A stretch of DNA of 62,826 nt, the filler included, from Perkinsus olseni (Eukaryota), in assembly GCA_013115125.1 (NCBI GenBank). It is 10 parts of 10 records of this genome, joined end to end, with 100 filler letters (N's around TTAATTAATTAA, not from the genome) between each part and the next. Parts side by side here need not be neighbours in the genome. Positions count along the whole stretch, not along the records: positions 1 to 6,274 come from JABANN010001111.1; 9 more parts are not named here. One strand, given 5' to 3'. The notes under the pieces are model-generated. The model ran no database searches. It saw only the letters and a program-made list of their open reading frames with translations, and was not told the DNA's origin. Shown here piece by piece: positions 1 through 34,808 of this stretch (position 1 is its first letter; the number at the start of each line of letters is the position of its first letter). The position numbers were made by a program, and so were the translations under genes.

Positions 1-959
1 GTACGTGTAAGATATTGGGTGTACTGGACTTGGACGTCTGTTTCTATGTTTTACCTCCCGGCCGGGAACCGTCCTCCCGGTCTGGTCCGACTAAGGACGA
101 GGTAGTTCCGGGGCCGGTTTCAAACACCGGCAAATGAGCGGGACGGGATAAGTGCGAAACTCCCGTTTTCGATCTTCTGAAGGTTTTCCCTCTCGCTCCC
201 GTCCCGTGGCGGGAGAGCGAGTCCCGCCCGAGTCCCGCACTTCTCGCTGCGCTGAATCGCAGCTATTTTATTTATTTCGGATATTTTGCGCTTTTATCCC
301 GATATTCTAGAGCGTCGTCCAGACCATACCTGATTTTGCATGGTTCATCGCTGTGGCGTCGTGTCGCGTGTGCAGTTACTGCACGGACCGCAATAATACT
401 GCACTGCAGTATTATTGCGGTCCGTGCGGTTGTCGTGGTACCCTGTGGCCCACAGGCTGTGCGGTCTGCATGATCTCACAGGGATTTCGACTATCGCGGC
501 GGTCAGCTGAAACACAATCCCATGAGAAATTGTCGCGTACACCCCTCAGGCGTCGTCCAGACCATACCTGATTTTGCATTGTTTATCGTTGTGGCGTCGT
601 GCCGCGTGCGCAGTACTACGTTCTGTGCGGTTGTCGTTCTACCCTGTGAGGCCTGTATGTAGTCACAGGGATTTCGACTCTCGCGGCGGTAAGATGAAGC
701 AAAATCCCACGAAAAATTGTCGTTTACTCCCCTGCATCGTCGTCCAGACCATACCTTATTTTGCGTGGTTTCTCGCTGTGGCGCGTGCGCAGTACTGCGT
801 TCTGTGCGGTTGTCGTTCTACCCTGTGAGGCCTGTATGTAATCACAGGGATTTCGACTCTCGCGGCGGTAAGATGGAGCAAAATCCCACGAGAAATTGTC
901 GTTTACGCCCCTGCAGCGTCGTCCAGACCATACCTGATGTTGCGTGGTTGCTCGCTGTG

Positions 960-1117
960 TGTTAGGGTTCCGTCCATACTAGCAACGCGACAGGGGCGTA
1001 AATGTAGGTGTGCTGCACTTAGGATCTACTTATAGGCTATAATGCAGGGTATCGATCACGCTATGGGCGTCGGCGCAATATACAGACAACGGAGCGGAGA
1101 TAGGGAGATTCCTTACA
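960..1117 (-). repeat. 3' LTR (158 bp)
   Basis: Direct repeat of 5746-5903 with TG...CA termini; adjacent to the PPT. Confidence 0.95.
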
Positions 1118-1256
1118 CGTCCCCCCTCCCCTAAAGCCAACAACAGCCTTGTAGATGCAGCAAAAAATAGAAGTGATTAGCAAATATTGGTGGTAGCTAA
1201 CTGGTATGAATAATGCTGGTAGCAGTGAATCGTAGCAAAGCGAAATGAGATTGATA

Positions 1257-3362
1257 TCAGAAATGCTGAATAAGTTGAGATATTGGGTAAGCTTTCAGAC
1301 GATCTTGCTTGACGTCGATAGGAGGCGACGTAGAGCCCAGTCTTCGGATACGAAACGTACCAGGACGGACTTCGGACAGTACTTCATAAGAGCCTTCATA
1401 TCGTGGTTCTAATTTTAGAGGTTGCTCGACCCTGCGAGCAACGACCGTGCCAGCCGGAAATAGGCAAATATGATCAGCAGGGAAAGATGAGCCATCAATA
1501 TGCACAGTATCATCAAAGAAGGGACAGCGGGGAATAATGTTGAGCAGCATAGAGTATGGTGATTGACCAGTTGTGGAGTTCTTGGTAGCATTCATACGAT
1601 AAACCACAGAGTCAGCATGTTGAACCCAATCCTTGTTGTCGGATAAGTAGAGGCAGGACCTTATACCGTCATGAAAGGTACGGTGTGGTCTTTCTGCAGC
1701 GGAGTTAGACTCCGGAGAATAGATAGCAGTGCGTGCCTCTCGGATACACCTATTGGAACACCACTGAGCAAACCCAGTAGAGAAGGCCTTGTCGTTATCA
1801 TGCATTAATAGTTCAGGATATTGGCCATATGATATCCTCCAGTCTTCAAGTGCTTTGCAAATACTATCTGTAGCTGGGCGTTCCGTTGGGTAAACTCGAA
1901 AGAGACGAGTATACATATCCGATATCGTAACAGCATATGGGTGCTTAGTGTTAGCATAGGGACCAGTAAAGTCAATAGCAAGATAAGAGAGAGGTTTATG
2001 TGGTTGTGGGAGATGTCCAAAGAGCTTCCGGTTATGATACGACTTGCATAGGATACATGAGAGACAGGGATATTTATTGCAGACCTTAGACATTCGCGGG
2101 AACCACCAATGACGAGAAGCCAAGTCATAGAGAGCTTTCTTGCCTGGATGAGCATAGTAGTCATGATATCTCTGTAGCAATAAAGGTTGAAGCGGTGATG
2201 GTACATAAAGACGCTGGGTACCAGCTAGGCGAGCAAGACCGGTTGGGTCCTGAACGATGATACCTTTTAGCAGCAGCTCATCTCGCTCACGACAAGGTTG
2301 TCCAAGGGCTTCTCTAGTAAGGTATAGTGGTGCTTGGTAAGGCCTCGTACAGATCTTCTTCACTACAGGATCAGCATCAGTAGAAGAGATCTGACGTTGA
2401 CGTTTACCGGCAATAGGCTGCAGCGTGGAAGGTATAACAGCTGCTTGTAGAGATACAGTGCCAGCTTCATGTGCTTGTTGTGGAGGTTCACAATCTCGGA
2501 GTTGAATAAGTCGCTTATGAAGGTCATCACGAGTACCAATGCCGGCTAGGTTACTCTTGGTCTCGATGTAGGTAAAGCATATGCAGTTGAGTCGTTCTCC
2601 TAGGAGTTCTTGAAGTAGTCGGAGCTTCTTCTCCATGTAGACTTGCATAGGGCCAGCAGTCGTACGACCATGTTGTAGTATTGAGAGCACAGTCTTGCTA
2701 TCAACAAAGACTTGAATGTCTTTGAACTGAGCGTCCATGCGCATCTCCAGCAATACCATCCTCTGCAACGCTAGCAGAACCATCATCAGCTCCTTGCAGT
2801 TTATATGTAGAGCAACCTCTGAAGAAGTGAAACTGTGTTGGCCACGCAGGATCTCAATGTCATTCTGGAAGAAGCGATAGCATCCACAGTAAGCTCCAGC
2901 ATCGGTAAATATCTTGACTGGCAGAGCAACATTGATGTGACGTTGAATGGTAGGCGGAGTGGCATTCTTGAAGGTATCATGGAACTCTCGCAACAGGCTC
3001 AGCAAGAATGGTGGAAGTTCAGCATCCCAAGAAGTCAGCTGATGACGACATTTAGCTACTAGTGACTGCAGTAGATTGCGGGTGGGCAGCAAGAAGAAGG
3101 GTAAGACCTCGGGCAGGGTCATGATTTTTCCCAGCAGTGTGAGGGCATCACGTAGTGTGGGGTTGTTAGGGAGCTCGAAGTTGGAGAACTTTTCCCAGCC
3201 TCGCAGGCTGTAACGGAGAGCACAGCCGTGCTCAACAGTCTCAAGGCCTAGGAAAGGAGCAACTTGGACGGTAGATACATCAACGAGCGTAGTCGGGAAG
3301 TGGTACTTCTCGAATAGTCGCTGTAGTTGTTGAGGGTCTGGATGATCTGTTGCTATGTTCAT
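1257..3362 (-). CDS. C-terminal RT - RNase H - integrase (continuation of the polyprotein after a 1-nt frameshift)
   Basis: RNase H motifs IFTDAG, HINCKEL, VFVDSKTV and SNLAGIGTR. Integrase HHCC (HDYYAH...CILC), DDE (AIDFTGP, HDND, SAAERPH) and a GPY/F-like KLEPRYEGSYEV. Confidence 0.9.
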   Translation of the reverse strand: MNIATDHPDPQQLQRLFEKYHFPTTLVDVSTVQVAPFLGLETVEHGCALRYSLRGWEKFSNFELPNNPTLRDALTLLGKIMTLPEVLPFFLLPTRNLLQSLVAKCRHQLTSWDAELPPFLLSLLREFHDTFKNATPPTIQRHINVALPVKIFTDAGAYCGCYRFFQNDIEILRGQHSFTSSEVALHINCKELMMVLLALQRMVLLEMRMDAQFKDIQVFVDSKTVLSILQHGRTTAGPMQVYMEKKLRLLQELLGERLNCICFTYIETKSNLAGIGTRDDLHKRLIQLRDCEPPQQAHEAGTVSLQAAVIPSTLQPIAGKRQRQISSTDADPVVKKICTRPYQAPLYLTREALGQPCRERDELLLKGIIVQDPTGLARLAGTQRLYVPSPLQPLLLQRYHDYYAHPGKKALYDLASRHWWFPRMSKVCNKYPCLSCILCKSYHNRKLFGHLPQPHKPLSYLAIDFTGPYANTKHPYAVTISDMYTRLFRVYPTERPATDSICKALEDWRISYGQYPELLMHDNDKAFSTGFAQWCSNRCIREARTAIYSPESNSAAERPHRTFHDGIRSCLYLSDNKDWVQHADSVVYRMNATKNSTTGQSPYSMLLNIIPRCPFFDDTVHIDGSSFPADHICLFPAGTVVARRVEQPLKLEPRYEGSYEVLSEVRPGTFRIRRLGSTSPPIDVKQDRLKAYPISQLIQHF

Positions 3363-5763
3363 CCATATAATATTTTATATTGTAGGGCGACCTCGCTATG
3401 GTGCAGATGTGGGACATGCATGCAAGTAGTACAAATGGCGCGAAGTTCGGCCCATAAGGCAGGTTGCAGAAGTAATATCGGTGGCCACATATGAATACCG
3501 TCATCAACCTCCGAAGGTGAATGCCCGTCTTGATGCGGAAGAACGCATCCGATACATCCATCAACTGCAAGGTACCATATCCTCGGGTAGCATCGAGGAT
3601 AGAGTAGAGTGGGTCTTGCCGGACTGGACAATTCTTGAGTAGCTGCTTAGTCTCCTTGTTGAAGTTCCTGAAGGGGAAGACAGGTCTAGCACGCTTCGCT
3701 CCTCTAACACCGTAGTATGTAGTGGTCAGGTATTCGTAGCCGTCGTCGTCGCCATTGCCTGGGACTGGACGCAAACATCCTCGTTGGATGAGGCCTTCAA
3801 GGCGAGTACGGGTTTCATCGAACAAGGTAGGATCAGAAGGATCGGGCTTGTTCAGGGGATGTTGCTGTGACAACTTCTTCGGGCAAGGCTTCTTAACAGG
3901 GACGCTCTCGGGCTTGATATCAACGGTGAAGACTCTAGTCTCCGGATCGTCGGGGTCAGCCTCGACAGTGATAATGAAGCTCGGTGTCTCCATGACGACT
4001 GTAGTCTTCCGAGAAGGGGGTTCTTCATTAAGGCTTCTGATCTCGGCATTATCGAGCCGTTGTTGATCTTTCTCGGAAGTATCTGAAGCCTGGAAGGCAG
4101 ATGATGAATAAGAAGCTGATGTAGGACTTAGCTCTGCAGTTGGGCCCACTACACCACAGGTAGTTTGAGGCTGCACAGGGCGGAATCCATCGGAGAGTAC
4201 CAGCTTCTGAGTGATAGGGTTGTAGTTGAACCCCTTGGCTTGCTGTAAGTCGGAGCCAAAGACGAATTGGAAAGGTTCGGGTAGGCGAGGAGAGACCAGA
4301 AAGGTAGTATTGATCTCGGTGTCAACCTCGTCAGCGAGCCGCCATGTAAGTGTGACAGTTGCATGGTACATAATGCAGTCGCCGTTCATGATGTAGGCGA
4401 TGTAGGGTACGTCGAGATACTTCAAAGGTAGGCCAAGCTCAGCAACAAGGTTATGAGATATCATACTTTCACAGCTGCCTGTGTCAATGAGCGCAACATA
4501 CTCCTTCGTTGGGTCGCCTTCCTGTGTTGGCACTGTGACTAGGCAGTGAGAAGTCTTCCGTAGATTTAGCTGTGCCATGGAAGTGGTTACAGCCTGAGGG
4601 TTGGGCATTGTAGTCGTGGTAGCCGTGGTAGCTGTCGAAGTGGCAGCAGGAGCCGTAGTAGCATTAGCTGTAGCTTGCTGTGAAGCTGCATGGGAGTACT
4701 TACATTTGTCACCAAAAATACAGTTCCCAGCCCTGAACTTCCTGCAAACTTCCTGAGTGGTGGCAGCGGGAAAAGTGGCTGGGGGTATCGGTGTAGCAGT
4801 AGATGATGTCGTATGTAAAAATTTGCACCGTGTGCCATAGGTACAGCGTCCTTGAAGGTTCAAGCGACATACTGTCGTCGGTAAGTGATCGGAGGGAACA
4901 CTTTGGGTTGTAAGTTTACGACCGCTTGACTCTTCATACGACGTACACCAATCTACCATGACATGCAAGGGAGTAGTGGCTTGTGGGTGTACTTGAAGAA
5001 GTGGTTGTCGCAGCCAGTTGGGGAGGCCATCTAGGAAAGCTCGGCGTAATGCAGTTAGTGGTATTTCATGGTTCAGATAGCGTGCATGCTGCTGTAAGTT
5101 TACAATAGTATCATGCAGGGCTTCGACGTTAACGAAGCTGATATGATTGATATCTCGGAGCTGAGCATAGATCTTGTCAACGTTGTTGGTGATAGACCAA
5201 CGGTTGTTGAACCAAAGCTCTGCTGCCTGGAGACGGTCCAGAGTTGTAGCATCAGATGCAATGTTCTTAGAGAGATAATTGTCAAGCTCCCGGGCTTGGC
5301 TTTGCTGCAAGCAGACGGCGGTTAGGTACCTCCAAGTGTCCATCTCGCTAAGTGCTGCTAGTCGAGCTGACTCGGCCACTCTATAGAGGAAGGCTGTAGC
5401 CGGACGCTTATCAGAAGTGCCTTGCCACACCTTTCCATCTGGTGGTTGGAGGCGTAGAACTCCTGCCAAGGATTTGGCGTCTTCAGAAGTGCTGGTTATG
5501 GCCGCAGATGCTAGAATGGATGGTGTAGTCGACTCCGACGAGTAGACCGAAGAAGGGCGGTGACGAGCCTCTTTAGCTTGCTTAAGGAGGCGATGGCAAT
5601 CTACTTTATGTTGCAATGTAGCGTCGTCGGGGAGAGCTTTCTCGATATCTTTGACGCTGACGAACTCCAAGTCAGAGACGTCCTTGAGCTTTAGGATTGC
5701 GAGAAGTGTACCGTAGGGTCCAAGGCCAACGGGTTCTTTACCAGCTGTTAGGGTTCCGTCCAT
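3280..5763 (-). CDS. Gag (two CCCH zinc fingers) - aspartic protease - N-terminal RT
   Basis: Two C-x7-C-x5-C-x3-H motifs; protease ALIDTGS; RT motifs LMDVSDAFFRI, LPYGPNFAP and YYMD, followed by a frameshift. Confidence 0.9.
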   Translation of the reverse strand: MDGTLTAGKEPVGLGPYGTLLAILKLKDVSDLEFVSVKDIEKALPDDATLQHKVDCHRLLKQAKEARHRPSSVYSSESTTPSILASAAITSTSEDAKSLAGVLRLQPPDGKVWQGTSDKRPATAFLYRVAESARLAALSEMDTWRYLTAVCLQQSQARELDNYLSKNIASDATTLDRLQAAELWFNNRWSITNNVDKIYAQLRDINHISFVNVEALHDTIVNLQQHARYLNHEIPLTALRRAFLDGLPNWLRQPLLQVHPQATTPLHVMVDWCTSYEESSGRKLTTQSVPSDHLPTTVCRLNLQGRCTYGTRCKFLHTTSSTATPIPPATFPAATTQEVCRKFRAGNCIFGDKCKYSHAASQQATANATTAPAATSTATTATTTTMPNPQAVTTSMAQLNLRKTSHCLVTVPTQEGDPTKEYVALIDTGSCESMISHNLVAELGLPLKYLDVPYIAYIMNGDCIMYHATVTLTWRLADEVDTEINTTFLVSPRLPEPFQFVFGSDLQQAKGFNYNPITQKLVLSDGFRPVQPQTTCGVVGPTAELSPTSASYSSSAFQASDTSEKDQQRLDNAEIRSLNEEPPSRKTTVVMETPSFIITVEADPDDPETRVFTVDIKPESVPVKKPCPKKLSQQHPLNKPDPSDPTLFDETRTRLEGLIQRGCLRPVPGNGDDDGYEYLTTTYYGVRGAKRARPVFPFRNFNKETKQLLKNCPVRQDPLYSILDATRGYGTLQLMDVSDAFFRIKTGIHLRRLMTVFICGHRYYFCNLPYGPNFAPFVLLACMSHICTIARSPYNIKYYMDEHSNRSSRPSTTTATIREVPLPDYAR

Positions 5764-5903
5764 ACTAGCAACGCGACAGGGGCGTAAATGTAGGTGTGCT
5801 GCACTTAGGATCTACTTATAGGCTATAATGCAGGGTATCGATCACGCTATGAGCGTCGGCGCAATATACAGGCAACGGAGCGGAGATAGGGAGATCCCTT
5901 ACA
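5746..5903 (-). repeat. 5' LTR (158 bp)
   Basis: Direct repeat of 960-1117; followed on the minus strand by a TGG PBS-like sequence; contains the ORF ATG at 5763. Confidence 0.95.
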
Positions 5904-6274
5904 CTGTGGCGCGTGCGCAGTACTGCGTTCTGTGCGGTTGCCGTTCTACCCTGTGAGGCCTGTATGTAGTCACAGGGATTTCGACTTTTGCGGCGGTAAG
6001 ATGAAGCAAAATCCCACGAAAAATTGTCGTTTACTTCGCTGCAGCGTCGTCCAGACCATACCTGATTTTGCGTGGTTTCTCGCTGTGGCGCGTGCGCAGT
6101 ACTGCGTTCTGTGCGGTTGTCGTTCTCCCCTGTGAGGCCTGCATGTAGTCACAGGGATTTCGACTCTCGCGGCGGTAAGGCGAAGCAAAATCTCACGAGA
6201 GATTGCCGTTTACTTCCCTGCAGCGTCGTCCAGAATGTAGTAACAGGGATTTCGACTCTCGCGGTGGTAAGATG

Positions 6275-12020: not shown

Positions 12021-14851
12021 GTTTGCTGGGTTATTATCTGTGTATTCCTCTGAGGTATCTATTGTTCTTCGGATACGACTGGGTTTACACTGTGTACATC
12101 ACTCGGTTATCAGTAAGGATCATTGGTTACAAGAACTGGTTATTGTGTTGATTAGTCATGGTTACAGAAAATGGGCGTAACTCTGAGTCATCCACAGATG
12201 GGACTCGAACGGCTGTCAACAATAACTCAGTGCGTGCCTCCGGCTCCCAACATCCCTTCATCGTCGAGAGTGCAGAGCTTGACTCGTCTCGATGTCTGCC
12301 TGGCGCAGACTGCGCCAGGCAATTCGGAAACGGGTGAGGCTGCCCGGCTCACTGAGGCATCAGCATGCTTCATATTTCCCACTCTGGACTCTATAATCTG
12401 GCGCGACCAGTACGGACAGCGGAATGCCCAACTGCACAGCAGTTGTGCTCGCGTTCTTTGACCATATTTGTGCAAGTCTCAAAGGGGACCCGGGATGCGT
12501 TTGAGCTTCGGCCCGTTTTCGATCATTTTATTGAGTCGAGGTCGACGCAATCTTATCATTTGTGCTTTTCAACGTAACTACTCCTTGGTGTGCTAAAGAT
12601 CAGTGTATAATTCATGTTTGATGTGGACGATTATCGTCNNNNNNNNNNNNNNNNNNNNNNNNNNNNNNNNNNNNNNNNNNNNTTAATTAATTAANNNNNN
12701 NNNNNNNNNNNNNNNNNNNNNNNNNNNNNNNNNNNNNNAATGATAAGAGGAGAATGGAGTGACCCAGTACTCAAGGATTAGGTACTGAGTAATGATAAGA
12801 GGAGAATGGAGAGACTCATATCCGAGTGTTACATGTCTGCACGATGTCGCGGGTGTTGGGCTCTTGCTCCCGGCGCCAAGTACGGTTTCGTAAACAATAG
12901 CCAATGTTTCTTGTTTCAAAGGGATAAGTGAAAACAAGTCTATGATAGGGTACTAGACTCATTTTGGGTTACATGATAAGACGCAACACCGGAAAGTGAC
13001 GAAACGAGAGGCGGAGAGTAGTTGACTTGTTCGGAGAGATAATGCCAGGAACAGACAATCAAAAAAAGCTTTCTCGAGAGAGTCCTCTTCTCACCAACCC
13101 CAGTAGTACGGACGATGTGTGAGAATCTTCTTTTCTCCACGTGTTAACTGAGAGAACTGGTTCCCCATGATTGCTTCCCTGGCCGCAGCTCTCCTCTCTC
13201 CCGTGGTTAAGGACCGTTTGTGAGTCTCTGATCAGAAGAATAGAGTTCCAATATTCTTCCACTCGGGTTCCTACTAGTCGAGTAACTTTGGTGTGACAGC
13301 GTAATGGAATATTCCTGGTGTTCCATCTCCGCACGCGTGCGCTTCACTCCTCGGCTCCTCTCAACCCCATTCGCCGGTAGGGCGTCATCCGAATCAGAAT
13401 CGGAGGAATCATCCGGAAAATCCTGAAAAAGATGTTTTAACAGACGAATGCACTCGGAAAAAACCAGTGCTGATCTGACATACCTCTGTAAGTCGGAAGG
13501 TAATGACCCTCTCTGATTGTTTTGGAAAGGTTTCTTCGACGGTTGCGATGGTGGGACTCCGACGGAGTCACTCCGTTGGTCATCGGCAATTGCCCTGGCT
13601 AAATTGAAAGGGGGGATATGCATCAGTTCAGGTCTGTCAAACTCTAACGGTGATATCGTTTGGTCCCTGTTACTGCCGCCAGTGGTCTGTCACAAATTAC
13701 GTATGAAGTACGCACCCCGGAATCGAACGAGCACTACCTCATCATCCGTGTCTTCCTCGGCCTCCTCAAGGTTCTCATGATAAGAAGATTCCGCAATCGG
13801 CATGATAAAAAAGGGATAACTATAATTTCCATTGACCACGAACTGTGTAGTATTGTACAGAATATTACGCAGAGTACCAGTACTGCGTTGTATTTTACAG
13901 TGTGGTGGGCTGAGAAATAAACAATTGACCCCAATCCTGCTCAGCGAACATACCAGCATCCTGGGGTTCCATCTCTGAACGCTGGACCGATAGTCTTGAT
14001 CTTTTTCATTCCCCGACAAAGTTGCGTCCTAGCTGTGACAGGGCGCTTGTCGCAGATTAAATAATTGGAGCTTAAATGATTCGGCATTTGGAACACAACC
14101 AACACGTGATAAGTTGAAACGGCTTGTGAACGATAGGTGAATGAGCTTCCTTACAGAGAAATGGTGAACCAACAATGTGGGTGAGAGATGTACAAGAGGG
14201 GGCAAACTGAGTTAGGTCGCATCATTATAGGTGGCGGGTTCGCACTATCTCAGAACTTCTGGGTAGTGAGTAAGAAACGCGAGGAGCGGCAAATCGTATC
14301 GATCAACAGGGGACGCACTTTCGAACGGCACAAACGGACGAGCACTACAATAGTTCGGTTTCAAACTTGATAATCGCTTTAACGCTTGCGGTTGGATGGG
14401 CACGGTCCCACCGGGAATGACCAGACCCGTACCATCAGTTGCCTTGTCGATCCCATTGCATTCATTGTGACTCAAAGATGCACCATCGTCTACCTCCCCC
14501 CTCGGCTCGCTTTCGCCTTTCAGTCTCATTGTGTAAACATTCTCTTCTGTGTATCCGAGCTGTCTCAATAACTTGGTGTGCCTAAAAGAGGTAGCATCTT
14601 CCAGAATATGGCGAGAAGTCACACAGATGTCCTATCTCATGCTAGGGGAGATCAAGCACCTCCTTATTGTTATAGAGTCGATAATATCTCTCTTATTGCT
14701 GTGCATTGATTATTGTGGCGCGCGCATTATTCTTTGCATTAGCTATACACGGATAGTAAGACTCTTTTCCTTACCACATTTTCAGTGGTAGTGTTCATTC
14801 CAGTGGGCACAACATCCTGGTACTGGAACCGAGAAAGCCCTCTTCAACGTT

Positions 14852-15721
14852 ATGGCTGCTAATGTGAATGAAGATCACAGCCACAAGGGCACCTTGCCAG
14901 CTTGCCCCCGATTCTCTGGGGAGAAGATTTCCCCTGAGGAGCCGTCCTCGAGTGTTGAACTCTTCCTTAAAAGACTTAATACATATCTGCAGGTGAGGGG
15001 CCTGCGGCGACCTCCTGTTGATGCACCCCTCGAAGATCGTCAGCAGTATAGTACGAAAGCGGCTGGTGTTCTCAAGATTGCCCTTGATGGTCGTGCGTCC
15101 CAGCTCGTGTATTCGTTGTCTGATGATCGGCAAGACAACTACGATGATCTTGTTGCTGCTTTGCGGTCAGCTTTCGGCTTGGGTAAGCTCAATGCCTGGC
15201 GAGCATTCTGTAGGCGTGAGATGAAGATTGATGAGGTTCCAGATTCGTTCTTGGCGGACCTCAGGACTCTTCTCGACATCAGCCTACCCAACATGCAAGC
15301 CGGGGCGAAGGAGACCATCCTCAGGGCCCAGTTTATTGCAGGGCTTCCGAGCAATACAGCAGCTCGTACTCTCGCCATTGCCAAGTCCGAGGATCTGCAT
15401 GTGACCTTGATTGATCTCCTTGAGTTGGTGAAGGATCACCTGAGAGCATCACGGGTAGATCCCTCTACACCTGAAGTTCTCGGTGCTGCTGGGGTTCCTT
15501 GGTTCACCGGTAAGAGTAACAAGGGCCGTAAGGGAGCAGGTCGTGCTGGGAAAGGCAAGGGCAAGGCTAGGTCAAGTCCAGGTGTGAGCACGTCTCCGAG
15601 CACGCGGGTCTGTTGGCACTGCCATGAACCTGGCCACTTCAAGTCTCAGTGCCCGCAGTTGAATCGATCGTCTACCTCGAGATCGGCGTCAAACCCTCCT
15701 GGGGGTCACACCCAACTGTAA
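14852..15721 (+). CDS. Gag with a CCHC zinc knuckle
   Basis: Retrotransposon gag pattern (LRAQFIAGLP) and knuckle CWHCHEPGHFKSQC. Confidence 0.88.
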   Translation: MAANVNEDHSHKGTLPACPRFSGEKISPEEPSSSVELFLKRLNTYLQVRGLRRPPVDAPLEDRQQYSTKAAGVLKIALDGRASQLVYSLSDDRQDNYDDLVAALRSAFGLGKLNAWRAFCRREMKIDEVPDSFLADLRTLLDISLPNMQAGAKETILRAQFIAGLPSNTAARTLAIAKSEDLHVTLIDLLELVKDHLRASRVDPSTPEVLGAAGVPWFTGKSNKGRKGAGRAGKGKGKARSSPGVSTSPSTRVCWHCHEPGHFKSQCPQLNRSSTSRSASNPPGGHTQL

Positions 15722-16203
15722 GGAGTGTGAAGAGTCCCCCTTACCGATTAGCTGCTGCGGCTGGTTCTGTTCACCCTAGTCTTGACTGCTCTGCACTCCC
15801 ACAGCGAGACTTCACTGTCATCACTGCGAATGAGGAGAAATGTTCTCTGAATGCTCTGTGTGACCCGTGCTGTGCTCGTACATTAGTATCTGCTTCGACC
15901 TTCAACTCCCTCAGCCTTCCCCTTCGCAATGATGTTTCGTCTTCTCTCATTACTCTCAGCGACCAAGTTTTGTCAAGTGTTGGTTCAGGTGACATCACTT
16001 TGACGGTAGATGGCAACAGCTGTACGGTGAATGCCCTTGTAGTGCCGCATTTACCAGGAAATCTACCTCTATTGGTCGGTGCTGATTTCTGGTCATCTTT
16101 CCCCAATCATTCGTTGAATCTCCACTACGCCGTCTGGTCATGTCGACACCAAGTTCATAGCTGCGGCTGCTGTGCCGAGCTCCTCAACAGTCAACAGATA
16201 TGA
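15649..16203 (+). CDS. Aspartic protease, -1 frame relative to gag
   Basis: ALCDPCCARTLV (DTG-equivalent motif) and the C-terminal LLVGADF motif; overlaps the gag 3' end. Confidence 0.75.
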   Translation: MPAVESIVYLEIGVKPSWGSHPTVRSVKSPPYRLAAAAGSVHPSLDCSALPQRDFTVITANEEKCSLNALCDPCCARTLVSASTFNSLSLPLRNDVSSSLITLSDQVLSSVGSGDITLTVDGNSCTVNALVVPHLPGNLPLLVGADFWSSFPNHSLNLHYAVWSCRHQVHSCGCCAELLNSQQI

Positions 16204-18943
16204 GCTGGAATCTTGTTCTGTCGCCGAGTACTCTGATAGGTCGGTGGTACTGGATGCTCCGGACTGCGTTTGTAGGAGACTGACTCAGTCCGATGGCTCG
16301 TACAGATGGCAAGTCGGTTGGAAATGGTTGAACGGTGAGGCCCCTGACTACATCTGCTGCCCTGAGCAGTATTCCATTAATCATCTCTCGAACCCTCAAC
16401 GTCAAGCTCTTTATTCTGAGCTGGACAGCTGGATCGAGCGAGGTTGGCTCGTTCCAGTGAGGAGTGAAGAATTGTGTAAGATTCGCTGTGTTCTACCGCT
16501 AGTACCGGTAGTCCAAAGTCATAAATCCACGGCCGTACGGCCTACTATCGATTATACCTATGTTAATCGTTTTTGCATCATGGCCAGTGACCCTTTTGCG
16601 GGTAACTGCCAGCGAGAGATTCGTCGTTGGAGGCGTGTTGCTGATGGCAATGTTCTTGATATCTCTCGTGCATACCCGAGTTTGCTCTTGGATCCGGAGC
16701 AATCTTGGTATCAAGTTATTCGTCTTGACCATCGCGGTGATGGTCCCTACTTTCGGCTATGCCGTTTAGGCTTTGGAGCATCGTCAGCTCCAAGGATTCT
16801 GAAATCGGTGCTAGATTTCTGTTTGAAGGATGAACCGACTAAAAACCTTCGATATTTTGATGATATTCTGATTCCTAAGGAGTGTGATAACCGAACTAAC
16901 GACCCGCTGCATGATGGTGTCAATCGTGTGCGAAGCATTCTGTTACGGAATTCTTTGATTACTAAAGATCCGTGTCCCATCGAAGGTAGCCGCTTATTAG
17001 GCTTGGTAGTCTATAGAGATGATGATAAACGTCTCTGTTGGAAACGTCGGTTGTCCTTAGATGAGCTGCTGCACATTGAGGCCAAGCCCAATGGTGGCGA
17101 GGCTGTCAATTGCAAGGCATTCTCTTCGTGGGTCGGTACTCTCTCTTCTCATGTACCCGTATGCGGCTGGTTAAGGGTAGCTTCAGCCATCGGTCGACGA
17201 CTCATAGGTCGAGAATGTGATTCCACGAAGGCATCGTGGTTCCGAGATATTCCTGATGGTGTCCGTAGTTATGGTCGTCTTCTGTGCAAGCTTCTTCGTG
17301 CCCGAGGCGATCCGGCCACTGGTCTTTGGCTGTTACCAGCGCCACATAACTCCACCAAGTCTGGCGATCTTACACCAGTAAAGGTCTGGTTCGATGCTAG
17401 TACTTTGGCCATAGGAGTGGTTCTCACAACTTCCGATAATCAAGTCCTTTATGATTATTGTGCGTTGACGCCAGAATCTGCCATCGATCCTGGTAGCCGA
17501 CCATCTGCTCACGCTAACATTCGTGAGCTCGATGCTCTTCTAAAGGCAGTAGAGATAGCCACTGAGTATGAGTACACCAACGTTCAGCTCATAACCGACT
17601 CGAAGTCTGTATATGCTTGGGTCTCCAAATTGCTGTCCCACAAGAAGATATCGGTGCATGGCCTCCATAAACCACTGATAGTTCGAAGACTCGAGCTGTT
17701 GAGAAGGCTTGTCTCTGAGTTTCAGTTGCGGCTGACAATAAGCTGGGTAAGGTCCGATGAGAACCTCGCGGATAGTTTAACCAGATTACCTCAAGGCCTT
17801 CCACAATGCTATTCTACCACCGGTGCACTGGCTCTGGCTGGACTCCAGAGTTGCTCTCCTGGAGAACGCTCAGACTCTGACTCATCGTGGTGGCCATCCT
17901 TCAAAGACTTACAGGCTGCAATTGATGAAGGCATCCCTGAAAATGACCTCTCATCGTTGACTTGTGATTCGGATTCAGGGCTATACTACTATCGTAATCG
18001 CCTTTATGTTCCCCCAAGTCTACGTTCTCAGATCATCATTGGCGCGCATGAAGAAACTGTCCATGGTGGTATTCTAGCCGTGGTAGGTCTACTTGGGCGA
18101 TATTATTCCTGGCCCGCCATCCGGTCTGATGTTGAACGTGAACTTCGTCGGTGTTCCAATGAGGAATGTGAGAAAAACAAGGCCAAACTGTTGCCTTTGG
18201 TGACGTCCGATCCTCGCCGACTCTCATCAGGTCCGTGGGTTACTTGTGCTTCTGATGTTACCCATATTGATGGACGGCCGGTGCTGACCTTAATCTGTGA
18301 GTATTCCCGGTATGCGTTGGTATCTCTCTTGCTCAATGAGCAAGCTGTTTCCGTATGGTCAGCGTTCGTTCGCATGTGTAAGAGCTCTCTCATCGGCTAC
18401 CCGGTATTCCTACGAGCTGATCGTGGAGTATGGAGTGCTTCACGCGAGAGACTCAATACGGTGGGTACTACACTGGTATTGACAAGTAGCTATAGACCAA
18501 CAAGCAACGGTATCTGTGAGCGTTTCAATGCTACCTTGAAGACCAAATGCTCAGTTCTACGAGATTCTTCGCTAGCTGTGCGATTATCAAGAGCCTGTTC
18601 GGCTTACAACTTAGCTCCCCATAGTGCTCTGAACGGTGCTTCGCCTGCTGAAGTTCTATCTGGTAGAGAAATCCGTCGTGGCCTCGAACAAGCGCTTCCG
18701 GTCCCACCTCCTACAGTAGCCGAAGAATCTATTAAGTTCGACATCGGTGACCAAGTGTGGTTGGCAAAGCCTAAGGAGCAACGGCGTACTGGTGCCAGAT
18801 TCTTTGATTCACGATATGTTGTTGAAGAAGTTTCCCCATATGCTTATCGTGTACGCCCTATTGAGACCCGTCAGTCGTTCCGACGAGGGGTGTTTCTCAG
18901 ACGAAATTCAGAAGAAGTGGTATGCAGGAGTACTGCTCGATAC
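16118..18943 (+). CDS. RT - RNase H - integrase (partial)
   Basis: RT motifs AVRPTIDY, LDISRAY, RLGFGASSAP and YFDD. RNase H motifs WFDAS, NIRELDA, ITDSKSV and NLADSLTR. Integrase HEETVH...C-x4-C, ASDVT, RADRG and NGICERFN. Confidence 0.9.
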
Positions 18944-19082
18944 NNNNNNNNNNNNNNNNNNNNNNNNNNNNNNNNNNNNNNNNNNNNTTAATTAATTAAN
19001 NNNNNNNNNNNNNNNNNNNNNNNNNNNNNNNNNNNNNNNNNNNACGGCAACGGCAACCCTATCCGCCAATTTGCTGATGTCT

Positions 19083-27882: not shown

Positions 27883-28370
27883 ATGATCCGTCTACTGCTA
27901 GTCCTTGGTCTCATCGACGGTCTCGCTGAGGGGTTGTCTCCTAACAGGGGGTCTACCAATGCGACTACTGGGAGCGGGGCCAACGCCGGTCAGACCCCAG
28001 ATGTGAGATTTGATGAGTGCCATGCCGCCTCAGATTGCAGTCTTTGTCGATCAGGAATATTGCCAATCGCTCTGTGGGTCGCCCCCAAGCTCCATATGTG
28101 GAGATAAGGGGTCGTACTGTAAACCATACGGTCCACCTCAGAATGGTCAAAGAGTCTGCCAGGGCTTGTAAGTGCATCCATCAACCGGGACCCTACGATG
28201 CGCCGATGCGTGGCTCCTCAGTTACTATTTACCGAATAACAGTATGTGCTACTTCGGACCATTCACGACTTCCAGTGAGTGCCCCGAGGAACATCCTGTC
28301 TTCTGTGGAGGGAATGCGACCACTACACCCGGGCCCACCCCAACGCCCACGACCGGGCCTACCCCAACGC
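27883..28370 (+). CDS. Secreted Cys-rich protein (GSYCK...VCQG domain) with a Pro/Thr stalk, truncated by a LINE insertion
   Basis: Signal peptide MIRLLLVLGLIDGLA. Spliced exons give DQEYCQSLCGSPPSSICGDKGSYCKPYGPPQNGQRVCQG-FYYLPNNSMCYFGPFTTSSECPEEHPVFC-GGNATTTPGPTPTPTTGPTPTP, with introns near 28003-28033 and 28169-28221. Confidence 0.7.
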
Positions 28371-28398
28371 CAGTTTTGTTGTGAACTTCTTCCTAAGA

Positions 28399-29859
28399 AT
28401 GTCACGTACCAACAACCGTCGTACCAACACCGCTACTGGCAGCCACGGTGGAGGAACTGCGGCTGGAGACGATCAGAGGATGGAGCATGAAGCGACCGAT
28501 GCAACCAGCAGGGTAGGAAAAACGGGAGTGGGGAAGGTTCGTAATCTTCCTGAGGAATTGCGCATAACGTATAGGGATAGTAATATCTCCCAGTTGCTTG
28601 ACTGGGTTGATACTACTATAGACTTTTTCACCAATAATGACCGTCATAGTTTACCTGTATATGGTAATAAAGGTATACATGAATGTATTGCGGAACTGAG
28701 GAGAAAATTTCTAGCTCTTACTGAGGGTGCTCTGCATCATCAAAAAGAGATAAGCAGAGTTACTGCAGAGTTAGCAGAGGAACGTAACAAAGTAAAAGTA
28801 GTCGGAGGGGGCGTGAAAAGAAGAAAACCATCGGTGGATGCATCTTCAGAAGCTAGTCTCGGTAGTTGGGGATCAGAAGAAAGCAGCCAATGGTCTGACG
28901 CGCTAGAAGGTAGAGAGAGGGCAGGCAACCTAGTTTTGAGAAACATGAGTAGTAGTAGCAGTAGCAATAACAATAATACTAATAATAATAACATTTGGCA
29001 GACAGTTGATAGAAATCGCAATAGAGGTAGGCAGAATAATAGGGACCATGGAGACATCTCACAGACTAGGAGGGGCTCTCCAAGTCCAGTAGAAAGAGAG
29101 AAATTTTCAGTCATCATCACAGACAAATCTAGAATAGCTCAGGATGGCACATGGCCCTTCTTGCCAGCAGAGGATGGCAGGAAACTAAGTGATGAACTTG
29201 ATAGTCTCTTAGAGAACCTAAGAATAAACGCATCATACGTTACTAGAGGTGGCGTAGCGATAGCATGCGATAGTAAAGATGAGATTGAAAAGGTTGAGAA
29301 GGCAATTAGGGAAAAAGAGAAGTATGTCATAAAACCTAACAGTGGACCAGACATAGTTATGAGGGTAATAATCCCAGCGGCGCATGGTGAAATATCGAAG
29401 AGAGGCGATATACTAGAACACATCGGTCGTAAAAATCAGACCGATTTGAGCTCATGCAAAGTTGTGAAGAGAACCCTTAGGGGCTCCTTATTGATAAAGG
29501 GGCCACGGAGGATCCTCGGTCCACTCATCGATCGTGGGCGAATCTTTATTTCGCTATTCAGCTGTACTGTGACTAAAGGGGCTCCAACCAGACTCTGCTA
29601 CCAGTGCGGAGGATACCACAATACGGGGCCTGGTCTACTGTGTGTGGAACCGGCAAAATGTGCCTCCTGTGGAGGTGCGCACCCGCTAAAATTGTGCAAG
29701 AATCCCCTTCCACAGACAAGGGATATGAATGACCCTGAACGTGTATGTTCAAATTGTGGGAAGGAAGGCCACGCGGCTCTGCAATATCTATGTAATCCCA
29801 TCATAAAGTTAGATGCTAGAGTTGGTGCTCCGGAACAAGTTTCCGGAGCTTCCCAATGA
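28399..29859 (+). CDS. LINE ORF1 (Gag-like nucleic-acid-binding protein)
   Basis: ATG at 28399 (MSRTNN); knuckles CYQCGGYH...C, CASCGGAHPLKLC and CSNCGKEGHAALQYLC. Confidence 0.85.
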   Translation: MSRTNNRRTNTATGSHGGGTAAGDDQRMEHEATDATSRVGKTGVGKVRNLPEELRITYRDSNISQLLDWVDTTIDFFTNNDRHSLPVYGNKGIHECIAELRRKFLALTEGALHHQKEISRVTAELAEERNKVKVVGGGVKRRKPSVDASSEASLGSWGSEESSQWSDALEGRERAGNLVLRNMSSSSSSNNNNTNNNNIWQTVDRNRNRGRQNNRDHGDISQTRRGSPSPVEREKFSVIITDKSRIAQDGTWPFLPAEDGRKLSDELDSLLENLRINASYVTRGGVAIACDSKDEIEKVEKAIREKEKYVIKPNSGPDIVMRVIIPAAHGEISKRGDILEHIGRKNQTDLSSCKVVKRTLRGSLLIKGPRRILGPLIDRGRIFISLFSCTVTKGAPTRLCYQCGGYHNTGPGLLCVEPAKCASCGGAHPLKLCKNPLPQTRDMNDPERVCSNCGKEGHAALQYLCNPIIKLDARVGAPEQVSGASQ

Positions 29860-31523
29860 TGCTCTCACGAAGAGCTTCTGTAAGTCATGGTAGTAATGAA
29901 GATGAGAGGAGGGATGACATCATTAGTAGTGATCAACGAATAGATGATAGCACTGGTAGCAATCAACAACTAGAGAATAGCACCGGTAGTAATCAACGCG
30001 TAGATGATAGTGTTGGTAATGGCAGCTATACAGACGATAGAACTGATAGTAACTCTCGGGTAAATGATATCACTGGTTGTAACATAAATTTTGCCACCTT
30101 CAACTGCTCTAGAAGCAGAGCAAATCTGGAATCGTGGTACCGGGACTATGGGTATAGGTGTGACGTGGCATGTATCCAAGAACCACCCGCTTTTCTTGGG
30201 CAAGTGTTCAATGATATGATAGTAGTATTTTGCTCCAGCAATCTAGAAGTAGACACAGCGGCAAGAGACTATACCAGGGCAGCAATACTGGTAAGGAGGG
30301 AAATCACAATTAAGAAAGTGAGGCCGAAGCCTGACTGTGTTAGTACGGATGTAACAACGAAGGATGGGGAATGTCTACGAGTCGTCAGCTTATATGCTGA
30401 CAAGAACCTCGACCCAGGGGACCTGTGTAGTTGTCTCGAAGGTCTACTAGAGGACAGAGAGTTCGACTACTTATTAGTAGCGGGAGATCTGAATGCATGT
30501 TCCTCTTGGTGGTGCTCCCCGCCACTATCGGATAACGACGAGAGGACCCGGAGGGGAGAAGTCTTTGAAGACTGCTTCCTGAGAATGAACCTAGCCCCAG
30601 TGAATGCTAACAAGGGTGTACCATCTTTCTACTCTGGAGGAAGGAGTAGTTACATTGATGCGATTCTAGCTTATGGGGTGACAGTTAATAAACCAGCGTA
30701 TGCACTTGATACGAGCGGTGACCATAGGACTCTTATGTGCGAAGTCCGGTGTGGAAACAGGGAGCTCGAAACAAGGAGCAAAAGGATCAACTATGTGAAG
30801 GTGGTGAACTGGGATGGTTTCATGGCACGGGTAGCCAACAAGACTCCACGCTTTATAAGAATGGATGATACGTCATCCATTGAACAAGCTGCAGTCAAAT
30901 TGAATGATGTCATTAGAGAAGCTATGCTGGAATCTTGTAAGGATACCAAGAACAAGAAACAAGCTAGAGAAAGACGCAAAAGCGGACAGGTCTGGTGGAA
31001 CAATGAGTTAGAAAAGAAAAGAAAAGCTCTGCGAAGAGAAGAAAAGGAAATGAGAAAGACTAAGAGGGGAGGGCTAACAGAGGGGGAAAGAGAGAGCCTT
31101 AGGAATCGTGTACGAATGGCGAAGAGAGATTATTTCAACAGCATCCACAGGGTGAAACGTGAATTTTATCAGCACAAGAGGAGCACTGCGACTTTCAAAG
31201 AACTGACTAGGAGCTTCAAGGTTAGCACTATAACAACGGAAGGGTATGAAGCGGAGAAGATAATAGACCGATTGCTCGACATAGGAGATGAAAGTTTATA
31301 TTCGCACCCGAGTAGATACGAAAAACAGTCAACGGAGCCTCTTGGCGGAGATGTTACACTGGAAGAAATCAGAAAAGCCGCCTCGAATTTCAAGAAAGGG
31401 AAAGCCCCTGGAAGCGACGAGATAGCTTATGAATTCATACAGATCGCTTGTGGAATCGAGAGATGGGTGGAAAAATTCAGAGTTTTGATCCAACGGATTC
31501 TGGAATTTGCATTTTATCCTAGC
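29856..31523 (+). CDS. LINE ORF2: AP endonuclease plus RT N-terminus (partial)
   Basis: APE motifs ATFNC, IQEP, SLYA, AGDLNA..SWW, SYIDAI and SGDHR; then VWWN and KAPGSDEI (pre-RT domain 0). The ATG overlaps the ORF1 stop (ATGA). Confidence 0.92.
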
Positions 31524-33341: not shown

Positions 33342-33965
33342 ATGATGCGCGTTCTCCTCACTTTCACGATCCTCGCTGGCGTCAGTTCGCAAACCCCTAC
33401 CGCATCATCTGCTGTTCCTACGACAATCGATGTTGTCACCACTGATCCCCCGGCAGCGTCGACCACCTCCGAACAGAACTCGAACTCCGCCCCTGCCGCT
33501 TCCTCTACGGCGAGTGCATCTGCCACAGGTCTACCCGGTTCGTCTGCTCCACCAACGAGTTCAGCTGTGACGGTAACGAGTCAGCCTGTTGCAACGTCTC
33601 AATTTCCTGCATCTTCTACCGCTGCCGTTGCATCAACTACACCGCTTGTGAGCAGTAGTAATGGTGTCGGTGAATCCACAGCTGGAGTGCCTGCGAGCTC
33701 AAGTACTGCTAGTGCTGCAACTTCGGCCAGTACGACCCAATCACAAGTGACATCAGTAGTTCCGTCAACTCCCGTTGACTCAACGTCCGCAAGCAGCTCT
33801 CCGAGGTCGTCGACTGTGTTGCGGAGTTCCACCACTTCCGGGCCATCCACTGCTACCTGGCCTGCAACCACACCGACGTGGCCCACGTCGGATGCATCTT
33901 TCATCATCATGTCGCATGCCGTTGCATGCGTCTCTGTTGTATCGCTCTTGTTTATAAGTATTTAG
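33342..33965 (+). CDS. Ser/Thr-rich mucin-like, putative GPI-anchored surface protein 1
   Basis: Signal peptide MMRVLLTFTILAGVSSQ; S/T/A/P-rich body; TSDA followed by a hydrophobic C-terminus. Confidence 0.8.
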   Translation: MMRVLLTFTILAGVSSQTPTASSAVPTTIDVVTTDPPAASTTSEQNSNSAPAASSTASASATGLPGSSAPPTSSAVTVTSQPVATSQFPASSTAAVASTTPLVSSSNGVGESTAGVPASSSTASAATSASTTQSQVTSVVPSTPVDSTSASSSPRSSTVLRSSTTSGPSTATWPATTPTWPTSDASFIIMSHAVACVSVVSLLFISI

Positions 33966-34121
33966 CATAACAGTATTCATCTCCATGACAGTATGTGGCG
34001 CTAAACGCTAACCTATATAATTTTGTACTGGCGACTCATCGCTGTAGTGGAAGCGCGTTTTGTTTTAAATTGAGACGAATCCATAGTGCCGGGAACGTCT
34101 CCAGTTCATTCTCATTGCTCC

Positions 34122-34604: not shown

Positions 34605-34808
34605 ATCTTACCGTAACATTGGAAAGCGGAGCTCGATCTTCGATGTTCTTGCTGCGCTCCTACTGCTGCTAACCAGCGTTTTTGAAATACAGCGTGCCTG
34701 GGTGAGTGTTATCACCCGCCGCCGGTGACCCGTGTGCCAAACAACGTTATGTTGTGTTGGAATTTGTGCTTCGGCGGCGTGTTGTTAGCTGATTCTCAGT
34801 GTATCACG

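What the first reader, a model, noticed from the sequence alone, without database searches (positions are those of the whole stretch)
4690..4869. LTR retrotransposon whose Gag uses tandem CCCH zinc fingers instead of CCHC knuckles
Seen: between the capsid-like region and the protease (DTGS) lie CRLNLQGRCTYGTRCKFLH and CRKFRAGNCIFGDKCKYSH. Both are C-x7-C-x5-C-x3-H and are separated by a Thr/Pro linker; the ORF has no CCHC knuckle. Known: the nucleocapsid of Gypsy, Copia and BEL elements is normally C-x2-C-x4-H-x4-C, whereas CCCH fingers are typical of cellular RNA-binding proteins (TIS11, makorin, CPSF30 types). The other two LTR elements in this window have ordinary CCHC. Inference: this lineage replaced its nucleocapsid with a captured CCCH RNA-binding module, implying a different mode of RNA packaging or priming.
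Basis: partly seen in the sequence, partly recalled or inferred. Interest (0 to 1): 0.78.

Follow-up and report, generated by a model that had tools for sequence, protein, structure and literature searches.

The report
Retrotransposon Gag with CCCH zinc fingers
A jumping gene of the shellfish parasite Perkinsus olseni carries two CCCH zinc fingers, a type typical of cellular RNA-binding proteins, where such elements normally carry a CCHC knuckle; several distantly related Perkinsus elements do the same, so this predicted RNA-gripping part was likely swapped more than once, although a CCCH Gag was already reported once, in a blood-fluke element.

Summary
Confirmed. Window 960-5903 (minus strand) is a complete 4,944-bp LTR retrotransposon of Perkinsus olseni: TG..CA LTRs, 5-bp target duplication, gag-PR-RT-RH-IN. 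Two C-x7-C-x5-C-x3-H fingers (Pfam zf-CCCH, over cut-off) lie between capsid and protease, and there is no CCHC knuckle. This copy has a real frameshift in RT. Finger 1 is kept in a second copy and in relatives from three Perkinsus species. CCCH also precedes a protease in 15 loci of this genome. On RT-RH trees the CCCH elements form at least three groups, each among CCHC relatives (one clade rejected, p about 0.001 or lower), and each group's capsid resembles a different CCHC capsid, so the finger module was likely swapped repeatedly. Priming looks ordinary (tRNA-Leu site, polypurine tract); the tandem pair is not conserved (one or two fingers). Not categorically new: a paper reports CCCH in the Gag of Saci-2 (Schistosoma, gypsy-like), and this scan noted a CCCH Gag in another protist genome. 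I found no paper on the Perkinsus elements or on recurrent swapping. RNA binding is untested. New variant of a known kind; interest 0.52.

The parts
5746..5903 (-). 5' LTR, 158 bp, TGT..ACA; holds the ATG of gag-pol (5763-5761)
   Evidence: 3 differences to the 3' LTR
960..1117 (-). 3' LTR, 158 bp
955..959 (.). target-site duplication CTGTG, left copy
5904..5908 (.). target-site duplication CTGTG, right copy
5733..5743 (-). primer-binding site, 2 nt behind the 5' LTR and inside the reading frame; 9 of 11 nt complementary to the 3' end of a tRNA-Leu(TAA) (11 of 11 in two relatives)
1120..1132 (-). polypurine tract just before the 3' LTR
   Evidence: read from the sequence
3280..5763 (-). ORF1, 827 aa: Gag (capsid-like, two CCCH fingers), protease, first part of RT
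4894..5481 (-). capsid-like region (about aa 95-290)
   Evidence: no direct Pfam hit
4813..4869 (-). CCCH finger 1 (C-x7-C-x5-C-x3-H)
   Evidence: kept in copy L012 and in P0006, P0008
4747..4812 (-). 22-aa Thr/Pro/Ala linker, no Lys or Arg
4690..4746 (-). CCCH finger 2 (C-x7-C-x5-C-x3-H)
4564..4689 (-). Thr/Ala-rich spacer between finger 2 and the protease, no Lys or Arg
4249..4506 (-). retropepsin-type aspartic protease (DTGS at 4485-4474)
3358..3687 (-). reverse transcriptase, N-terminal part; the frame is broken inside the YxDD motif
   Evidence: no insertion or deletion against the window at this place in 4 of 4 runs laid
1257..3374 (-). ORF2, 705 aa: rest of RT, RNase H (weak Peptidase_A17 hit, about 2697-3086), integrase (H2C2 at about 2037-2204, D,D-x34-E core, weak SH3-like tail)
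   Evidence: DDE spacing read from the translation
476..959 (.). 179-bp tandem repeat into which the element inserted, left part
   Evidence: no Rfam match near a gathering score
5904..6234 (.). same 179-bp tandem repeat, right part

Best explanation
This is an LTR retrotransposon whose Gag carries two CCCH zinc fingers in place of the CCHC knuckle, and the fingers likely do the nucleocapsid's job of gripping the element's own RNA. Shown: position between capsid-like region and protease, absence of CCHC, conservation across copies and three Perkinsus species, recent insertion of CCCH-bearing relatives, ordinary tRNA primer site and polypurine tract. Inferred: Gag-Pol is made as one polyprotein and cut by its protease; the fingers bind zinc and stack single-stranded bases on two aromatic residues, as TIS11d does; with no Lys or Arg in the linker or the spacer behind, the fingers would supply most of the RNA contact for packaging. 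Inferred history: the finger module alone was exchanged for CCHC at least three times on different capsid and RT backgrounds in Perkinsus. The donor (host RNA-binding genes, or co-resident retroelements that also carry CCCH) is unresolved. The window copy itself is likely disabled.
For: Two Pfam zf-CCCH stretches over cut-off. Finger-to-protease distance is 77-85 aa in 6 CCCH elements and 61-225 aa in 27 CCHC elements. Of 59 RT-anchored elements, 0 carry both finger types upstream of RT. Against copy L012 (92% nt), dN/dS is 0.029/0.223 over Gag codons 1-280, 0.092/0.26 in finger 1 (all four ligands and both aromatics kept) and 0.224/0.042 in the stretch just before it. Of 26 retroelement CCCH fingers, 23 have an aromatic residue two places after the third Cys; of the 23 with x5 spacing, 21 have the Gly and 16 the aromatic or His between Cys 2 and Cys 3; both window fingers keep Tyr or Phe at both places. 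PMC1635273 (passages) describes two aromatic side chains, one between Cys 2 and Cys 3, stacking RNA bases in TIS11d. L048 has an uninterrupted 1,640-aa ORF, one CCCH, identical 177-bp LTRs and a 5-bp duplication; L012 has identical LTRs and a 5-bp duplication. All CCCH LTR rows as one clade: rejected, p-AU 0.001 (LG+G4, 25 rows) and 1e-4 (mixture model, 19 rows). The best CCHC capsid match differs by group: window and L048 to L005 (E 2e-12, 6e-24), L054 and L107 to L147 (4e-10, 5e-12), L112 to L053 (5e-7), L106 to L128 (3e-8).
Against: No binding, zinc or structure data; no structure model could be made. Finger 1 rests on 20 codons with 4 amino-acid-changing differences. Finger number and linker vary, and the abundant deleted copy lacks finger 2. 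All trees are quick searches without bootstrap, with many long branches; the careful searches did not finish. Group A is not resolved: the CCHC pair L055/L058 is its sister but nested in it. The integrase tree is poorly resolved and places the window integrase away from group A without strong support. L048's capsid is closer to L005 than to P0006, so gag-pol recombination occurs and can inflate the count of swaps. The 19-20-aa fingers are too short to trace to a donor.
Confidence: 0.7

Rival explanations
1. The CCCH fingers have a regulatory job rather than packaging, for example controlling translation, stability or trans-splicing of element or host RNA, and packaging relies on other parts of Gag, as in knuckle-less Gags.
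For: CCCH fingers are typical of mRNA-regulating proteins, and the best PDB sequence matches are of that kind. Knuckle-less Gags exist (errantiviruses, spumaviruses; PMC2577118 passages), and some Perkinsus Gags have only a Gly/Lys-rich stretch there.
Against: The fingers sit at the knuckle's distance from the protease and never together with CCHC in 59 elements. The window Gag has no basic stretch around the fingers that could package RNA instead.
Confidence: 0.15
2. CCCH entered these retroelements once (or was ancestral, for instance from tyrosine-recombinase elements), and the scattered pattern comes from whole-gag recombination with different pol genes, or from reversions to CCHC.
For: CCCH ends gag-like ORFs of L097, L109 and L137, which group (99) with the tyrosine-recombinase elements L130 and L134. 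Gag and pol affinities disagree for L048. CCHC L055/L058 may be nested in group A.
Against: The capsids of the CCCH groups resemble different CCHC capsids more than each other, which whole-gag transfer would not give. CCHC is the majority state (35 of 50 protease-anchored loci) and the general state of LTR elements (PMC2774666, PMC12440569 passages).
Confidence: 0.12
3. The fingers are a passenger (a captured fragment in one dead copy), or a chance or assembly artefact.
For: The window copy has a frameshift in RT, 2 mismatches in its primer site and 3 LTR differences.
Against: 0 of 20,000 shuffles give two motifs. The same stretch is assembled without differences in independent runs. The fingers are conserved in three species and lie in recently inserted elements with open frames.
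Confidence: 0.03

Closest known systems
Saci-2 of Schistosoma mansoni (GenBank BK004069 per PMC554778; gypsy-like LTR retrotransposon)
   Same: Integrase-type LTR retrotransposon whose Gag has a CCCH motif instead of CCHC (PMC2582038, passages and Discussion read).
   Different: Saci-2 is called gypsy-like (PMC554778), whereas this element's RT-RH falls on the other side of the Gypsy split, so the two are probably convergent. The Saci-2 motif spacing and finger number were not seen: the primary paper is not held and the sequence was not compared.
BEL/Pao (Belpaoviridae) LTR retrotransposons
   Same: Domain order PR-RT-RH-IN; weak Peptidase_A17 hit in the window (E 0.0025) and over cut-off in relative L050; RT-RH on the side of the one BEL reference (99).
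   Different: No triple Cys-His box, no DUF1759 Gag hit, integrase D-x34-E rather than the expanded spacing described for BEL/Pao (PMC554778).
LTR lineages with other odd Gag fingers: CsRn1 (CHCC), Tat (CHHC), Troyka (C-x2-C-x8-10-H-x4-C)
   Same: Lineage-specific departure from the CCHC knuckle (PMC2582038, PMC2577118, PMC12440569); PMC2582038 also proposes substitution from a host gene for CsRn1.
   Different: Those motifs are knuckle variants or have no cellular match; here the finger is a Pfam-recognised cellular type and recurs in several lineages of one genus.
TIS11/tristetraprolin, muscleblind and CPSF30 CCCH RNA-binding proteins
   Same: Ligand pattern and the two stacking aromatics; best PDB sequence matches, E 1.6e-5 and weaker.
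   Different: x7 instead of x8 first spacing, no YKTEL-type lead-in, 22-aa low-complexity linker instead of 18 aa (alignment), linker not conserved.

Membership tests
LTR retrotransposon (DDE integrase type) | two direct LTRs with TG..CA ends and a 4-6 bp target duplication | tested here: met
   158-bp LTRs, 3 differences, CTGTG on both sides
LTR retrotransposon (DDE integrase type) | gag, protease, RT, RNase H, integrase | tested here: met
   RT frame broken in this copy; capsid assigned indirectly
LTR retrotransposon (DDE integrase type) | tRNA primer-binding site and polypurine tract | tested here: met
   11 of 11 nt to tRNA-Leu(TAA) in L012 and L014, 10 of 11 in L048, 9 of 11 in the window; tract at 1120-1132. 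The tRNA set seen is partial (46 distinct 3' ends).
Ty3/Gypsy (Metaviridae) | RT-RH groups with Gypsy elements | tested here: not met
   outside the clade of 9 Gypsy references and 3 local Gypsy elements; joining rejected, p-AU 0.013, one model, quick tree
Ty3/Gypsy (Metaviridae) | GPY/F module at the integrase end | tested here: inconclusive
   SH3_Tf2-1 hit at E 0.081 only
BEL/Pao (Belpaoviridae) | RT-RH groups with BEL/Pao | tested here: inconclusive
   same side of the main split (99), but only one BEL reference, on a long branch, nearest to group B rather than to the window's group
BEL/Pao (Belpaoviridae) | triple Cys-His box in Gag | tested here: not met
   no CCHC in ORF1; feature from PMC554778
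BEL/Pao (Belpaoviridae) | expanded D-E spacing of the integrase | tested here: not met
   34 residues, read from the translation; about 49 in Sinbad
Tyrosine-recombinase retrotransposons (DIRS/PAT/Ngaro) | tyrosine recombinase instead of DDE integrase, no protease, split or inverted repeats | tested here: not met
   the element has a protease, an H2C2/DDE integrase and plain LTRs
zf-CCCH domain (PF00642, PF18044) | score over the curated cut-off; C-C-C-H ligands | tested here: met
zf-CCCH domain (PF00642, PF18044) | binds zinc and single-stranded RNA | not testable with these tools
   stacking aromatics present; no model, no binding data
TIS11/TTP tandem zinc finger | C-x8-C-x5-C-x3-H twice, fixed 18-aa linker, YKTEL lead-in | tested here: not met
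   x7 spacing, 22-aa linker, 5-72 aa in relatives; x8 spacing from PMC1635273; linker length and lead-in as family rules are recalled
Saci-2-like elements | sequence kinship of Gag and Pol with Saci-2 | not tested
   sequence not available through a call; primary paper not held

The most novel reading that the evidence does not exclude
In Perkinsus the nucleocapsid slot of LTR retrotransposons is a swappable cassette: the universal CCHC knuckle has been replaced by host-type CCCH fingers at least three separate times, and by an RRM in another lineage, and the elements stay mobile. CCCH Gags then select their genomes by a sequence-specific, mRNA-regulator-like read-out instead of the guanine-gripping knuckle, and a single finger without basic flanks is enough.
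Probability: 0.35. Interest if true: 0.72.

Novelty: new variant of a known kind. Interest (0 to 1): 0.52.

Why it matters
The CCHC knuckle is the most constant mark of Gag and is used as a lineage marker; surveys count zero to three knuckles and do not list CCCH (PMC2774666 and PMC2577118, passages). One CCCH case was reported for Saci-2. Here mobile elements carry a cellular-type CCCH finger in several separate lineages of one genus, next to close CCHC relatives. That gives natural paired comparisons for an open question: which nucleocapsid functions (RNA selection, tRNA annealing, strand transfer) need the knuckle fold, and which can any small RNA binder do. It also has a practical side: in this genome a share of the proteins annotated as C3H1-type RNA regulators are retrotransposon Gags.

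Tried and rejected
Relatives outside Perkinsus: none found. The word-index search with Gag (aa 1-420) returned only the window's own protein; with the pol of P0006, 2 Perkinsus proteins; with a profile of six CCCH polyproteins, 11 hits, none with a precomputed CCCH domain. Of the 150 listed among 838 representatives, those with RT or integrase were Perkinsus records where looked up; 688 were not listed. A metagenome scan gave 498 pattern matches and 0 relatives. An Atlas search with a CCCH-protease stretch gave no cluster with both families, best score 0.89. These searches are insensitive to distant relatives, so absence elsewhere is not shown. No structure model was obtained. Integrase tree: 9 of 32 inner branches starred, uninformative. 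Tracing the fingers to a donor by pairwise score failed: nearest neighbours mix groups and host fingers, and some loci that I had labelled cellular proved to be retroelement gags. A parsimony count of 5 changes had no shuffle control and is not used. The leader RNA (5500-5820) folds no better than shuffles (z -0.49). The flanking 179-bp repeat matches no Rfam family near its gathering score. A public gene model (P0002) bridges the RT break with a predicted intron; no joint at that place appeared in the 4 runs laid. The 'CCCH' hits in PMC2864245 were the element name Ccchromovir; PMC4738411, PMC10799480, PMC3266345, PMC4157794 and PMC3118150 had nothing on CCCH Gag in the passages shown. A different priming mode was rejected.
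Full report
Observation. The window is a chain of about 6-kb pieces joined by N spacers; places 1-6274 are contig C127 of the own genome. The protein collection names the matching record as Perkinsus olseni. On the minus strand an ORF runs from 5763 to 3280 (827 aa). It holds two C-x7-C-x5-C-x3-H motifs at 4869-4813 and 4746-4690, a 22-aa Thr/Pro/Ala linker, the protease motif at 4485-4474 and no CCHC. Pfam scores both fingers, with zf-CCCH_4 and zf-CCCH over their cut-offs. Of 20,000 shuffles of the ORF, 10 held one such motif and 0 held two. The two other LTR elements of the window carry one and three CCHC knuckles.

The element. It spans 960-5903: 158-bp LTRs with TG..CA ends and 3 differences, a CTGTG duplication on both sides, inserted in a 179-bp tandem repeat. 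The order is Gag, protease, RT, RNase H, integrase. The capsid assignment is indirect. There is no Pfam gag hit in the window protein. Language-model features point to Retrotrans_gag clusters (0.94, a lead), and the region aligns with the CCHC-bearing Gag of L005 (26% over 188 aa, E 2e-13). The frame is broken inside the RT YxDD motif. Contigs of 4 of 4 runs laid (of 24 listed) cover that place without any difference from the window, so the break is real and this copy is likely disabled. Two nt behind the 5' LTR lies a site complementary to the 3' end of a tRNA-Leu(TAA): 11 of 11 nt in L012 and L014, 10 of 11 in L048, 9 of 11 here. A polypurine tract precedes the 3' LTR. Priming therefore looks ordinary.

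Conservation. The genome holds one more internal copy, C3234 (L012), 92% identical, with identical LTRs and its own 5-bp duplication, and three further near-whole LTR matches without internal sequence among 10 LTR matches. L012 has an internal deletion from finger 2 through RNase H, so Gag with finger 1 is fused in frame to the start of the integrase. Between the two copies dN/dS is 0.029/0.223 for codons 1-280, 0.092/0.26 for finger 1 and 0.224/0.042 for the 17 codons before it (small counts). In all 4 runs the deleted form is much deeper than the full-length one (3069 vs 103, 790 vs 8, 555 vs 2-6, 206 vs 3-6). The runs are contigs, three only guessed to be RNA and one of unknown kind, so expression is likely but not shown. 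Public relatives with capsid and CCCH come from P. chesapeaki (P0006, KAF4650643.1, Gag-CCCH-CCCH-PR-RT-RH-IN; P0010; P0071), P. olseni (P0008) and P. marinus (P0135). The number of fingers is one or two, and the linker is 22, 53, 51, 72, 33, 26 or 5 aa. The tandem pair is thus not the conserved unit; a finger in this slot is.

Wider pattern in the genome. A search with zf-CCCH_4 gave 85 matches, of which I inspected a part. CCCH directly precedes a retropepsin-type motif in 15 loci (C127, C3248, C1371, C2865, C3320, C649, C681, C579, C1206, C1284, C1085, C982, C3220, C2858, C1586); 7 of them also show RT in the stretch held. For a census not chosen by finger type I took the 58 protease matches. 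Five were not fetched and 3 had too little upstream sequence. Of the other 50, 35 have CCHC, 6 have CCCH and 9 have something else (Gly/Lys-rich, RRM-like, variant knuckles, or nothing recognised). These are loci, not families. Of 59 RT-anchored elements, a set enriched for CCCH by my choice of loci, none has both finger types, and the last finger lies 77-85 aa before the protease in 6 CCCH elements and 61-225 aa in 27 CCHC elements. L048 has an uninterrupted 1,640-aa ORF with one CCCH, identical 177-bp LTRs and a 5-bp duplication: an element with a CCCH Gag has inserted recently.

History. RT-RH trees were built with 63 rows (4 dropped: a duplicate of L048, a fragment, and two rows with no protease or finger upstream) and with subsets of 39, 25 and 19 rows, and with 32 rows plus 11 public proteins. 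All are quick trees without bootstrap. CCCH elements fall into group A (window, L008, L048, P0006, P0008, P0135; in a clade of support 99-100 with CCHC L055/L058), group B (L096, L106; among triple-CCHC and RRM-like elements) and group C (L016, L054; among CCHC elements). Holding them together is rejected: p-AU 0.001 under LG+G4, with every pair of groups rejected too, and 1e-4 under the mixture model. Two rows without a known Gag were added to A after seeing the tree. Group A alone is neither resolved nor rejected (p 0.185). Capsid similarity agrees with a swap of the finger alone: outside its own group each CCCH capsid is most like a CCHC capsid, and a different one for each group. Against this, the integrase tree is uninformative, and L048 shows gag-pol discordance. 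The donor is open. CCCH also ends gag-like ORFs of L097, L109 and L137 (broken there), which group with two tyrosine-recombinase elements, although no recombinase hit was found in the ORFs of L109 and L137 that I scanned. The fingers are too short to trace.

Mechanism. Inferred, not tested: the polyprotein is cut by its protease, the capsid domain assembles, and the fingers bind zinc and the element RNA. Both window fingers keep the aromatic residue between Cys 2 and Cys 3 and the one between Cys 3 and His; 23 of 26 retroelement fingers keep the latter. PMC1635273 (passages) describes base stacking on two aromatics in TIS11d, guanine recognition by retroviral knuckles, and warns that CCCH specificity cannot be predicted from sequence. 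The linker and the 42 aa behind finger 2 hold no Lys or Arg, while the fingers hold 4 and 5. Retroviral nucleocapsids are strongly basic (recalled), so here the fingers would carry most of the RNA contact. A changed packaging specificity is plausible and untested.

Classification. With 9 public Gypsy proteins and 1 BEL protein as references, group A lies on the BEL side of the split (99), and joining it to Gypsy is rejected at p-AU 0.013. It lacks the BEL triple Cys-His box and the expanded integrase spacing. I leave it as an unclassified LTR lineage with BEL-like RT-RH.

Literature. Ten searches were run, with CCCH, zf-CCCH, C3H1, Gag, nucleocapsid, LTR retrotransposon, DIRS, Ngaro, Saci-2 and Perkinsus in combinations. 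PMC2582038 (passages and the Discussion read) states that Saci-2 of Schistosoma mansoni encodes a Gag with CCCH instead of CCHC; PMC554778 (passages) calls Saci-2 gypsy-like. The primary Saci-2 paper is not held, so its motif was not seen. PMC2577118 and PMC2774666 (passages) treat the CCHC count as a lineage marker and do not contain the word CCCH. PMC12440569 (abstract and passages) gives the Troyka finger. None of the listings described Perkinsus LTR elements with CCCH. Repbase and GyDB could not be searched, most subscription papers are missing, and I read no supplements; a catalogue entry may exist there. Earlier notes of this scan report an RRM in the same slot in this genome (e1-7221952) and a CCCH Gag in another protist genome (e1-7369129); they are leads, not support.

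Verdict. The architecture has a published precedent, so this is a new variant of a known kind. What seems new is the recurrence in one genus, on the non-Gypsy side, beside close CCHC relatives. Interest 0.52.

Noticed in passing
L012:2172-4834 (G000:C3234): Non-autonomous 2,663-bp derivative: Gag with one CCCH fused in frame to the integrase start, identical LTRs, 5-bp duplication; about 30 to over 100 times deeper than the full-length form in 4 of 4 runs laid.
   Followed up: partly
window 5733-5763 (-): The gag ATG lies inside the 5' LTR, so the primer-binding site is translated; the resulting G-G-E-P-type motif recurs near the N-terminus of P0006, P0008 and L014.
   Followed up: partly
L127:2371-3450 and L129:96-4175: An RRM (Pfam RRM_1, E 2.5e-7 in L127; RRM-like by eye, no Pfam hit, in L129) stands in the nucleocapsid slot before the protease.
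   Followed up: partly
L124 (G000:C2993) and L140 (G000:C666): Gag finger C-x2-C-x10-H-x4-C, the spacing given for Troyka, which the abstract reports from animal phyla; termini and duplication length not checked.
   Followed up: no
L097, L109, L137; gag-like ORFs in L073, L104, L108, L114: CCCH fingers at the end of gag-like ORFs without protease; L097, L109 and L137 group with tyrosine-recombinase retrotransposons.
   Followed up: partly
L145, L203, L225; L202, L234: Other nucleocapsid-slot types: Gly/Lys/Tyr-rich stretches without a finger, and a C-x2-H-x4-H-x4-C variant.
   Followed up: no
window 476-959 and 5904-6234: 179-bp tandem repeat without Rfam match that hosts the insertion; empty-site joints appear in 3 of 4 runs.
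   Followed up: partly
window 14792-18991 (+) and 44326-50381 (-): Two further LTR elements: one with a single CCHC and a DUF7047 domain, one with a triple CCHC and a Pao-type RNase H.
   Followed up: partly
window 28279-31571 (+): Non-LTR-type element: ORF1 with degenerate Cys-His motifs, followed by an endonuclease-like ORF cut by the contig end (read).
   Followed up: no
window 33189-36632 (+): Cluster of four short Ser/Thr/Ala-rich ORFs with hydrophobic ends, like secreted or anchored mucin-type surface proteins (read).
   Followed up: no
L013:4858-5862 (G000:C176): Gag of the window's family (31% identity) cut by the contig end before the finger, next to an unrelated CCHC element.
   Followed up: partly
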